The notes beneath the pieces are model-generated. The model did not search any database. It had not been told where the DNA came from and saw only the letters and a program-made list of their open reading frames with translations. A program made the translations under genes and the position numbers. DNA of 41,148 nt. It comes from a virus. Below are positions 17,047-17,843 of the stretch, in pieces. The stretch's first letter is position 1. Every line of letters starts with the position of its first letter. The DNA lies in the UHGV virus genome UHGV-0181186; one strand, written 5' to 3'.

Positions 17047-17289
17047 ATGCAAACATTAACAGTAGTTGAACATGAAAACTGTGAGAGTATTGAGTTTGTC
17101 AGGGTCATTGGTGTTGAACACCACATTTTCTTAAAAGTGGGATACTTATGTGACCCCGCTAGAGTAGAAAGATTTATACGTGATTGTTTTGGTGGTAGAC
17201 ATCTGAAGAGTGTTATTTTTGAGACAGTTTTACCAGAAGGTTTAGAAACGAATAATAACATTTACCTCCTTACGAGGATTAGACAATGA
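17047..17289 (+). CDS. hypothetical protein (first gene of a two-gene cassette inside the tRNA array)
   Basis: 80-aa ORF; AAGGTGA RBS; overlaps the start of the next gene. Confidence 0.55.
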   Translation: MQTLTVVEHENCESIEFVRVIGVEHHIFLKVGYLCDPARVERFIRDCFGGRHLKSVIFETVLPEGLETNNNIYLLTRIRQ

Positions 17290-17843
17290 GATACTTAAAG
17301 TATGCTTCATGGATTTTCTTAGCTTTGTTAGAGCCATTTGCAGCAATCTTAGCAGTTATCTTAGCACCTTTTGTAGTTCCATTCTACAGTGAGAAGAAAG
17401 GACACTTACCTTTCGGGTTCAGATGGATGGAGACATATGACAACCCAATTGATGGTGATGAAGGTCACGTTAAAAGATGGGCTAATATTAGATGGATTGG
17501 TAAGCTGGGTGTCTACATGCAGAGAGTTGGATGGCTCTGGAGAAACAAAGCTTATAACTTCTCTTACCATGTATTAGGAAGAGATGTAAAAGATGTTACT
17601 AAGTGGAAAGGTAATATCAACGTAAGTTCTGACCCCGAAGATAATCAGACAGGTTATCTCCTAATGTGGAACAGTAATGCTTGGGGATTATTCGCTTTTA
17701 TCCCATCAATTAAAATCTTTGGTAAACAATTTTACTGGAGAATTTATATTGGATGGAAACTAAAAAGTGTTGTCCCAGAAGAAAGAGCATTCTCAAGGGA
17801 AAGAGTTATGTTGGCATTCTTTATTCATCCACTGAGAAAGTAA
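17286..17843 (+). CDS. hypothetical membrane-anchored Trp-rich protein
   Basis: 185 aa; N-terminal hydrophobic helix (WIFLALLEPFAAILAVILAPFVVPF); many Trp residues; translationally coupled to the upstream ORF. Confidence 0.6.
   Translation: MRYLKYASWIFLALLEPFAAILAVILAPFVVPFYSEKKGHLPFGFRWMETYDNPIDGDEGHVKRWANIRWIGKLGVYMQRVGWLWRNKAYNFSYHVLGRDVKDVTKWKGNINVSSDPEDNQTGYLLMWNSNAWGLFAFIPSIKIFGKQFYWRIYIGWKLKSVVPEERAFSRERVMLAFFIHPLRK

What the first reader, a model, noticed from the sequence alone, without database searches (positions are those of the whole stretch)
17047..17843. Translationally coupled two-gene cassette inside the tRNA array
An 80-aa soluble protein is followed, with overlapping start and stop, by a 185-aa protein with an N-terminal transmembrane helix and a Trp-rich domain. 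The pair sits between tRNA-Arg and tRNA-Gln. Small coupled pairs in tRNA islands are often morons such as toxin/antitoxin, superinfection exclusion or anti-defence genes. No function is recognisable from the sequence.
Basis: inference. Interest (0 to 1): 0.5.

Follow-up and report, generated by a model that had tools for sequence, protein, structure and literature searches.

The report
Phage membrane protein with small partner
Two overlapping genes inside the tRNA cluster of a Felix O1-like phage are real; the larger one belongs to a widespread, unstudied family of phage membrane proteins (DUF7338) that repeatedly sits next to cell-bursting enzymes in other phages, so it probably helps control host lysis, and the smaller one is an optional companion found only beside it.

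Summary
ORFs 17047-17289 (80 aa) and 17286-17843 (185 aa) overlap by ATGA and lie 19 nt after tRNA-Arg and 8 nt before tRNA-Gln, in a Felixounavirus genome. Both are under purifying selection.

The 185-aa protein is Pfam DUF7338 (208 bits). It has one N-terminal membrane helix, is predicted N-in/C-out, and has a Trp-rich domain modelled at pLDDT 95 with no PDB fold match. [quoted passage not shown]

The 80-aa gene is a clean ~240-nt indel. It is absent from Felix O1 and garuso and forms a tiny family (20 clusters). Wherever it was checked it lies immediately upstream of a DUF7338 gene, usually with a 4-nt overlap. It is a satellite of that gene, not half of an obligate pair.

DUF7338 recurs in two settings: tRNA arrays (5 lineages) and beside endolysins of five different types (6 of 18 lineages, P≈0.002). 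One such case is the T4 holin (t) locus of T-less Aeh1-like phages.

Best reading (~0.4): a lysis-control membrane protein, either a holin of T-like topology or a holin regulator. Against it, Felix O1 ORF48 is transcribed early and the family co-occurs with T. No evidence supports toxin/antitoxin or anti-defence. Function is untested.

The parts
16954..17027 (+). tRNA-Arg(acg), upstream boundary of the pair
   Evidence: ARAGORN; Rfam tRNA 59.5 bits
17028..17046 (+). 19-nt spacer carrying the Shine-Dalgarno-like AAGGTGA for the 80-aa ORF
   Evidence: Read from the sequence. No promoter-like site lies here.
17047..17289 (+). 80-aa soluble protein gene (phrog_14202); an optional satellite gene of DUF7338
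   Evidence: ORF. PHROG E 1e-37. dN/dS 0.245. Present in 70 phage records and 20 protein clusters. A clean indel relative to Felix O1 and garuso. Upstream of DUF7338 in every context inspected. AF2 model poor, pLDDT 63.
17286..17289 (+). ATGA start/stop overlap (translational coupling signature)
   Evidence: Sequence. The same 4-nt overlap occurs in HP1, Av-05 and metagenomic loci L036-L040.
17286..17843 (+). 185-aa DUF7338 protein gene (Felix O1 ORF48 homologue)
   Evidence: Pfam PF24027, 208 bits against a cutoff of 27. phrog_2143. dN/dS 0.03-0.12. AF2 pLDDT 94.9.
17307..17384 (+). Codons 8-33: the single transmembrane helix, with a conserved polar face (residue 16 D/S/N/E/H in 80% of 176 relatives, residue 20 mostly T/S, P28 in 89%)
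   Evidence: Hydropathy and flank charges. Column counts. AF2 helix 2-33.
17424..17468 (+). Codons 47-61: conserved acidic loop W-x-x-T-x-D-N-x-[LI]-D-G-D-x-G-[HW], just after the membrane helix
   Evidence: T50 98%, D52 96%, G57 98%, D58 89% identical in 176 sequences.
17532..17555 (+). Codons 83-90: the W-L-W-R-N-x-A-Y motif
   Evidence: W83, R86 and N87 are 99% conserved.
17751..17759 (+). Codons 156-158: the G-W-K motif in the beta-sheet
   Evidence: G156 99%, W157 97%, K158 90%.
17852..17927 (+). tRNA-Gln(ttg), downstream boundary, 8 nt after the stop codon
   Evidence: ARAGORN; Rfam. tRNA-Gln(ttg) also follows the pair in Av-05.
15038..15066 (+). Best sigma-70-like promoter match upstream in the array (TTGACA-17-TATAGT, 11 of 12); a candidate driver of the co-transcript
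   Evidence: Consensus scan only. It corresponds to the P45 promoter predicted in Felix O1 (PMC3185647).
19367..19384 (+). First good terminator-like hairpin downstream of the pair on the + strand, after tRNA-Cys
   Evidence: Consensus scan. No terminator-like site lies between the pair and the following tRNAs. One weak hairpin match (17109-17123) lies inside the 80-aa ORF.

Best explanation
The 185-aa gene encodes a bitopic inner-membrane protein of the DUF7338 family. It has a short basic N-terminus in the cytoplasm, one membrane helix with a conserved polar face, and a ~150-residue Trp-rich globular domain in the periplasm.

I infer that it is a lysis-control protein. Either it is a holin with the same topology as T4 holin T (class III) but unrelated to it, or it is a partner or regulator of a small holin. 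In this model it builds up in the inner membrane, and its helix self-associates or binds a holin. That association decides when endolysin reaches the cell wall. The conserved periplasmic domain would serve as the oligomerisation or sensing module.

The 80-aa gene encodes a cytoplasmic protein made in fixed proportion through the ATGA overlap. It most likely tunes the membrane protein, by loose analogy with the 82-aa cytoplasmic antiholin RIII of T4. It is dispensable, because many close relatives lack it.

Both genes are probably transcribed with the tRNAs, and tRNA processing would release the mRNA.

Shown here: the gene structure, family membership, purifying selection, predicted fold, the indel nature of the small gene, and the genomic associations. 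Inferred: topology, lysis function, the role of the small protein and the mode of expression.
For: 1. Topology. There is one N-terminal hydrophobic helix. Across 176 relatives the N-flank averages +2.2/-0.16 charges and the C-flank +1.4/-1.3, which favours N-in/C-out. This is the architecture of T4 T.

2. Association with endolysins. Of 18 DUF7338 lineages (less than 50% identical to each other), 6 have an endolysin within two genes, and the endolysins are of five different types:
- GH24 lysozyme in phiAS5 and PX29.
- A SAR-like Phage_lysozyme in the L094 cluster.
- GH108 in L014.
- A phrog_669 endolysin in L007.
- Amidase_2 in the L108 cluster, with a 2-helix small ORF overlapping upstream.
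- A phrog_181/GH19-like endolysin in the jumbo-phage L090 cluster.
The binomial probability of at least 6 of 18 is 0.002, even at a generous per-gene chance of 0.08.

3. The T4 t locus. In Aeh1-like T4 relatives the order is tail fibre, tail-fibre assembly, DUF7338, lysozyme, Rz-like spanin (phrog_1152, E 1e-12), then asiA on the other strand. T4 has its holin gene t at this exact position. These phages are reported to encode no T holin (PMC6669705).

4. No holin is known in this phage group (PMC3185647, PMC6486253, PMC4837284). T is absent from a complete Felixounavirus genome.

5. Complementary distribution. phiEa21-4, of the same subfamily, has no DUF7338 (profile search of six frames, best E 0.58). 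Its own small holin candidates lie near its endolysin and have no homologue in the window.

6. The membrane helix has a conserved polar face, as expected for a helix that oligomerises or binds a partner.

7. The small gene was found only immediately upstream of DUF7338, in three lineages.
Against: 1. In Felix O1 the orthologue ORF48 was maximally transcribed 5 min after infection by RT-PCR, while the endolysin ORF35 peaked at 25 min (PMC3185647 Table 3). Holins are normally late genes. However, the same table puts capsid gene 58 in the early class, so its timing resolution is doubtful.

2. Miro, AV109 and LF82-7 each appear in both the T-holin and the DUF7338 hit lists. In Miro and its relative RB43 the DUF7338 gene lies among T4 early-type genes (cd, gene 31, vs.6).

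3. Most lysis cassettes that hold DUF7338 also hold small 1- or 2-helix proteins that could be the real holin.

4. Felixounavirus TP1 has a classic-looking 68-aa, two-helix protein with a basic C-terminus.

5. In the window the endolysin (8624-9088, minus strand) is 8 kb away.

6. The nearly invariant polar residues (T50, D52, D58, R86, N87, K158) look more like a ligand-binding or catalytic site than a typical holin.

7. The cytoplasmic tail is only about 7 residues, which leaves little surface for a cytoplasmic partner.

8. There is no experimental evidence of any kind. The 'holin' labels in some GenBank records are unreferenced.
Confidence: 0.4

Rival explanations
1. Superinfection exclusion or immunity factor. 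An early-made, membrane-anchored periplasmic protein blocks DNA entry or the tail lysozyme of later-arriving phages, or protects the infected cell from lysis from without, as T4 Imm and Sp do. The small protein would be a modulator.
For: - Felix O1 ORF48 transcription peaks early.
- In Miro and RB43 the gene lies among T4 early-type genes; Miro also encodes T.
- Its distribution among related phages is sporadic, like an accessory gene: absent from phiEa21-4, and within Vequintavirinae seen here only in the Av-05 group.
- It often lies directly after tail-fibre or tail-fibre-assembly genes, where receptor-blocking genes such as T5 llp and cor are typically found (from my own knowledge).
- The predicted domain faces the periplasm.
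Against: - No similarity to Imm, Sp, Cor, Llp or Sie families in Pfam or PHROGs.
- Rare in bacterial genomes and prophages: 6 loci among 185,579 species genomes, although that scan used only one peptide pattern. Exclusion genes are usually common in prophages.
- In several phages it overlaps or abuts late tail and lysis genes by 1-4 nt, which fits an operon member better than an independent immunity gene.
- The nearly invariant motifs span hosts from Aeromonas to Sinorhizobium. That argues for a universal target, whereas exclusion proteins are usually phage-specific.
Confidence: 0.2
2. Periplasm-facing enzyme or ligand-binding protein of a new fold. It acts on a universal envelope component (peptidoglycan, lipid II or undecaprenyl carriers, or the LPS inner core) and remodels the envelope during infection. 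It would only secondarily be linked to lysis or receptor genes.
For: - Invariant T, D, D, R, N, Y and K residues lie in loops next to the membrane surface.
- The domain is rich in Trp, Tyr and Phe (11 W, 10 Y, 14 F in 185 residues), as in sugar-binding sites (from my own knowledge).
- The fold is confidently predicted but has no PDB match.
- Every host named in the hit lists I inspected is diderm, including a Selenomonadaceae contig; two records in a DNA search are labelled Staphylococcus and Campylobacter and were not examined.
- It neighbours both tail-fibre genes and endolysins.
Against: - No detectable similarity to any enzyme family.
- The acidic loop could equally be a structural metal site.
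- A single conserved unpaired Cys (residue 150, 64%) and no conserved disulphide give no independent support for a periplasmic location.
- No substrate can be named.
Confidence: 0.15
3. One reading: a toxin/antitoxin-like or anti-defence moron pair. The membrane protein would be a toxin or effector, and the coupled small protein its antidote or co-factor.
For: - Two small overlapping genes, one soluble and one membrane-bound.
- The pair lies in a variable, homing-endonuclease-rich tRNA region.
- The small gene evolves fast: dS 0.76 against 0.23 for its neighbour in the same genome pair.
Against: - The supposed toxin occurs alone in most genomes, including one with an identical protein (garuso). 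That is incompatible with an obligate antidote.
- No hits in PADLOC, Pfam or NCBIfam to toxin, antitoxin or defence-related families.
- No promoter or terminator of its own.
- The family is almost confined to virulent phages.
Confidence: 0.07

Closest known systems
T4 holin T (gene t; Pfam Phage_holin_T; class III holin)
   Same: - Single N-terminal membrane helix with a predicted N-in/C-out orientation and a large globular periplasmic domain (185 vs 218 aa).
- In Aeh1-like T4 relatives, DUF7338 occupies the t locus between the tail-fibre genes and asiA, next to lysozyme and a spanin.
   Different: - No sequence relationship: no Pfam hit at E<=1 and hhalign probability 0.2%.
- The cytoplasmic tail is ~7 residues rather than ~34.
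- It co-occurs with T in Miro, AV109 and LF82-7.
- Felix O1 ORF48 is transcribed early, whereas t is a late gene (from my own knowledge).
- Hole formation is untested.
T4 antiholins RI (periplasmic) and RIII (82-aa cytoplasmic)
   Same: - These are small proteins that modulate a bitopic holin.
- The 80-aa protein is soluble, of similar size to RIII, and translationally coupled to the membrane protein.
   Different: - No homology: no significant match in Pfam, NCBIfam or PDB.
- The DUF7338 cytoplasmic tail is very short.
- The 80-aa gene is missing from most DUF7338-carrying phages.
- The resemblance is only an analogy recalled from the literature (Chen and Young 2016, from memory).
T4 Imm and Sp (spackle) superinfection-exclusion proteins
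   Same: Early-expressed, small, membrane- or periplasm-located accessory proteins of virulent myoviruses.
   Different: No sequence similarity. DUF7338 is larger, far more widely conserved, and recurrently sits in lysis cassettes.
Pfam DUF7338 (PF24027) / PHROG 2143 / Felix O1 ORF48 ('Phage conserved protein')
   Same: Direct membership: 208 bits over residues 1-184. The protein is 100% identical to that of phage garuso and 95.7% identical to Felix O1 ORF48.
   Different: None. The family has no described function, and no paper in the searched library mentions it.

Membership tests
Pfam DUF7338 (PF24027) | Score above the curated gathering threshold over the full-length model | tested here: met
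   208 bits against a cutoff of 27; residues 1-184 match model positions 1-176 of 180.
Pfam DUF7338 (PF24027) | Family motifs TxDN..GD, WLWRNxAY and GWK present | tested here: met
   T50, D52, G57, D58, W83, R86, N87, Y90, G156, W157 and K158 are all present and are 86-99% conserved in 176 relatives.
T4 holin T family (Phage_holin_T) | Sequence homology to T | tested here: not met
   No Pfam hit at E<=1. The DUF7338 HMM against T4 T is not significant, and hhalign probability is 0.2%.
T4 holin T family (Phage_holin_T) | Shared fold of the periplasmic domain | tested here: inconclusive
T4 holin T family (Phage_holin_T) | One membrane helix, N-in/C-out, large periplasmic domain | tested here: met
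   By prediction only: hydropathy and positive-inside statistics; AF2 helix 2-33.
Holin (functional class) | Encoded next to the endolysin or in a lysis cassette | tested here: inconclusive
   Not met in the window: the endolysin at 8624-9088 is on the minus strand, 8 kb away. Met in 6 of 18 other DUF7338 lineages.
Holin (functional class) | Late expression | tested here: not met
   Felix O1 ORF48 was maximal at 5 min by RT-PCR (PMC3185647 Table 3). The table also lists capsid gene 58 as early, so its resolution is doubtful.
Holin (functional class) | Forms lethal, energy-poison-triggerable membrane lesions that release endolysin | not testable with these tools
   Needs expression and complementation experiments.
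Type II toxin-antitoxin pair | Toxin and antidote are co-inherited | tested here: not met
   The 185-aa gene occurs without the 80-aa gene in Felix O1, garuso, Zyzzx and in all T4-like, Pseudomonas and Aeromonas phages examined.
Type II toxin-antitoxin pair | Recognisable toxin or antitoxin domains | tested here: not met
   No relevant hits in Pfam, NCBIfam or PADLOC.
Superinfection exclusion (T4 Imm/Sp type) | Early expression and an envelope location | tested here: met
   Early RT-PCR maximum for the Felix O1 orthologue; predicted membrane and periplasmic location.
Superinfection exclusion (T4 Imm/Sp type) | Homology to a known exclusion protein | tested here: not met
   No such family among the Pfam or PHROG matches.
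Superinfection exclusion (T4 Imm/Sp type) | Blocks secondary infection | not testable with these tools
   Needs plating and DNA-injection assays.

The most novel reading that the evidence does not exclude
DUF7338 is a new kind of periplasm-facing phage effector with a fold absent from the PDB. Its invariant acidic loop and WLWRN motif would bind or modify a universal envelope molecule at the outer face of the inner membrane. Through this it would set lysis timing or exclude competing phages in a way unlike any described holin, antiholin or exclusion protein. The 80-aa protein would be a cytoplasmic regulator specific to it.
Probability: 0.15. Interest if true: 0.7.

Novelty: new member of a known kind. 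Interest (0 to 1): 0.45.

Why it matters
The holin of Felix O1-type phages has not been identified since the genome was published in 2010, and Aeh1-like T4 relatives are reported to lack the T holin. These phages are widely used for Salmonella and E. coli typing and biocontrol.

DUF7338 is a concrete, easily testable candidate for that missing lysis function. If confirmed, it would add a large family (about 870 clusters at 50% identity) with a new fold to the small set of bitopic holins or holin regulators. It would also correct, or justify, the unreferenced 'holin' labels now spreading through GenBank.

If it is not a lysis protein, it is still one of the more widespread uncharacterised membrane proteins of virulent phages of Gram-negative bacteria.

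Tried and rejected
- A profile search of PDB sequences returned one chance hit.
- NCBIfam gave only a chance-level hit for the 80-aa protein, and PADLOC gave nothing.
- Literature searches for DUF7338, PF24027, phrog_2143 and locus tags found no papers. A search for Felixounavirus transcriptomics returned only irrelevant papers.
- I looked for a conserved Cys pair as a marker of a periplasmic location. There is only one conserved Cys, and it is unpaired.
- I tested whether other genes upstream of DUF7338 are relatives of the 80-aa protein (RB43 ORF078/079, Miro gp276/277, WG01 ORF139, and the upstream ORFs of L012, L013, L018, L019). They are not.
- I rejected the idea that DUF7338 is a core gene of the subfamily, because phiEa21-4 lacks it.
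- I rejected the antisense ORF 16986-17261, because the substitution pattern fits the plus-strand frame.

Full report
**What the window is.** The 2-kb stretch around the finding is 94-98% identical to more than 200 Felix O1-like myoviruses (Ounavirinae, Felixounavirus). The first 25 kb gives the same answer. The window carries 25 tRNA genes on the plus strand between 13632 and 19204. Rfam finds nothing but tRNAs in 11000-20000.

**The observation.**
- tRNA-Arg(acg) ends 19 nt before the first start codon. tRNA-Gln(ttg) begins 8 nt after the second stop codon.
- Each ORF has a Shine-Dalgarno-like sequence (read).
- The large protein has one strong hydrophobic segment and 11 Trp in 185 residues. 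The small one has none.
- Both are under purifying selection. dN/dS is 0.245 for the 80-aa ORF. For the 185-aa ORF it is 0.03-0.12 against three relatives, with no amino-acid changes against garuso.

**The small gene is an optional insert.**
- Felix O1 and phage garuso have the 185-aa gene directly after tRNA-Arg. Garuso's 185-aa protein is identical to the window's.
- An alignment shows a clean ~240-nt indel. Both arrangements keep a GAGG about 8 nt before the ATG of the large gene.
- tblastn finds the small protein in 70 phage records, against about 220 Ounavirinae-level matches for the large one.
- A profile search of 5.8 billion proteins finds only 20 clusters, all 75-83 aa.
- Its synonymous divergence is three times that of its neighbour in the same genome pair, so it has its own recombination history.
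- Every copy whose surroundings I inspected lies immediately upstream of a DUF7338 gene with the same 4-nt overlap. These are the window, Mooglevirus HP1, Avunavirus Av-05 (35% identical to the HP1 version) and five metagenomic contigs.
- It is thus a satellite of the large gene: never seen without it, usually absent from it.
- Its AlphaFold model is weak (pLDDT 63), with four strands and two helices.

**The large protein.**
- It is a full-length member of Pfam DUF7338 (208 bits) and PHROG 2143, both of unknown function.
- tblastn finds it in 602 phage records. These include Felixounavirus, many T4-like genera (RB43, Slopekvirus Miro, Dhakavirus, Karamvirus-like and Aeh1-like Aeromonas phages), the jumbo phage FBKp24, Pseudomonas Otagovirus and Sinorhizobium phiM9.
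- An exhaustive profile search finds 873 clusters at 50% identity, and almost all of the 150 best hits listed are 160-200 aa.
- Only 6 loci turned up in one genome each of 185,579 bacterial species. That scan relied on a single peptide pattern.
- With 32 homologues, AlphaFold gives pLDDT 94.9. The model has a helix at residues 2-33, five short helices, then a five-stranded sheet.
- Across 176 relatives the conserved residues are P28, L41, P42, W47, T50, D52, G57, D58, Y77, W83, L84, R86, N87, Y90, G109, G123, G156, W157 and K158.
- The membrane helix has a polar stripe: position 16 is D, S, N, E or H in 80%, and position 20 is mostly T or S.
- Flanking charges favour N-in/C-out. There is no conserved Cys pair.

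**Where the family sits in genomes.** I grouped loci into 18 lineages less than 50% identical to each other. Two settings recur.

*Setting 1: tRNA arrays.*
- Ounavirinae, including Hafnia phage Zyzzx, where the flanking tRNAs are different.
- Avunavirus Av-05.
- Otagovirus phiPsa347 and phage KoPa-4, only about 25% identical to the window protein.
- Dhakavirus WG01, between tRNA-Met/Arg and e.8.
- A metagenomic cluster, L096.

*Setting 2: the junction between tail-fibre genes and lysis genes.*
- In PX29 and phiAS5 the order is tail fibre, assembly protein (PX29 only; in phiAS5 DUF7338 follows the tail-fibre gene directly), DUF7338, GH24 lysozyme (1-2 nt apart), an Rz-like spanin, then asiA on the other strand.
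- T4 has its holin gene t at precisely that position.
- The Aeh1 cluster is reported to encode no T holin (PMC6669705).
- DUF7338 also abuts:
  - a GH108 endolysin in L014;
  - a phrog_669 endolysin in an Amantichitinum prophage;
  - a SAR-like lysozyme in the L094 cluster;
  - an Amidase_2 endolysin in the L108 cluster;
  - a GH19-like endolysin in a jumbo-phage cluster.
- Six of 18 lineages within two genes of an endolysin has a binomial probability of 0.002, even if the per-gene chance is set at 0.08.

**What this suggests.** This is guilt by association, but it is repeated with five unrelated endolysin types. It fits the protein's T-like architecture.

**The Felix O1 group and its missing holin.**
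- No holin has been identified in this group (PMC3185647, PMC6486253, PMC4837284).
- T is absent from a complete Felixounavirus genome.
- The related phiEa21-4 lacks DUF7338.
- phiEa21-4 instead has small holin candidates by its endolysin, and these have no counterpart in the window.

**Reasons for caution.**
- DUF7338 is not related to T: hhalign probability is 0.2%.
- It coexists with T in Miro, AV109 and LF82-7.
- Most cassettes that contain it also contain small membrane proteins that could be the holin.
- Felixounavirus TP1 has a textbook-looking 68-aa, two-helix candidate elsewhere in its genome.
- RT-PCR in Felix O1 put ORF48, together with the other tRNA-array ORFs 45, 46 and 49, in the class peaking at 5 min, ahead of the endolysin at 25 min (PMC3185647 Table 3). 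The same class includes capsid gene 58, so the timing data are coarse.
- In the window there is no promoter-like or terminator-like site bounding the pair (one weak hairpin match lies inside the 80-aa ORF). Good sigma-70-like matches lie upstream at 13485, 13576 and 15038, and a terminator-like hairpin lies at 19367.
- I infer co-transcription with the tRNAs and release of the mRNA by tRNA processing.

**Verdict.** The pair is real. The large gene is a known but uncharacterised family member. Its most likely role is lysis control, either as a T-like bitopic holin or as a holin partner (about 0.4). The last is undercut because the 'toxin' usually occurs alone. The 'holin' labels on some GenBank records carry no evidence, and the same annotators later reported that no holin was identified in a close relative.

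Noticed in passing
window 15271-15714: An HNH-type ORF (15316-15714, 132 aa, Cys/His-rich) sits in the tRNA array and overlaps a weak tRNA-like match (Rfam 15271-15349, 31.7 bits) that ARAGORN does not call. Relatives have tRNA-Arg(tct) in this part of the array. This looks like a homing-endonuclease insertion next to, or into, a tRNA gene.
   Followed up: partly
window 18232-19029: This is the second protein gene inside the tRNA array (Felix O1 ORF49 homologue; its Av-05-type relatives carry DUF7217). The listed GTG start overlaps tRNA-Phe (18203-18278). Relatives start about 17 nt after the tRNA, so the true start is probably near 18295. Whichard et al. list Gp49 as a virion protein of 51 kDa, which does not fit a 244-aa product.
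   Followed up: partly
L035 5605-5811 (Felixounavirus TP1, record 50605-50811), outside the window: A 68-aa protein with two membrane helices and a basic C-terminus (phrog_4532, unknown function), between nrdD and glutaredoxin. It looks like a classic class II holin and is the main competitor for the missing Felix O1 holin.
   Followed up: partly
window 5230-5763 (minus strand): A 177-aa protein with two C-terminal membrane helices, in the same minus-strand gene block as the endolysin (8624-9088). Function unknown.
   Followed up: no
L004 (Felix O1) 2292-2482 versus window 16948-17027: In Felix O1, tRNA-Arg(acg) lies 115 nt after tRNA-Leu and directly before ORF48. In the window it lies 5 nt after tRNA-Leu, with the 80-aa gene filling the gap on the other side. 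The spacing around this tRNA has been rearranged.
   Followed up: partly
L090 4028-5434 (jumbo-phage contig, IMG/VR): A 468-aa ORF with YadA head, stalk and membrane-anchor domains (a trimeric autotransporter adhesin) lies three genes downstream of DUF7338 in a ~250-kb phage contig. This is an unusual cargo for a phage.
   Followed up: no
L035 about 29304-29675 (TP1 record 74304-74675), outside the window: A 123-aa protein with an N-terminal membrane helix and a coiled coil lies just after the tail-fibre genes of Felixounavirus TP1. It resembles the helix-plus-coiled-coil proteins that flank DUF7338 in L014 and L094.
   Followed up: no
P0035 (172 aa, metagenome): One protein combines the N-terminal half of DUF7338 with a Gp53-like tail-fibre C-terminal domain (PF21882). 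It is probably a recombinant or an assembly chimera from a tail-fibre/DUF7338 junction.
   Followed up: no
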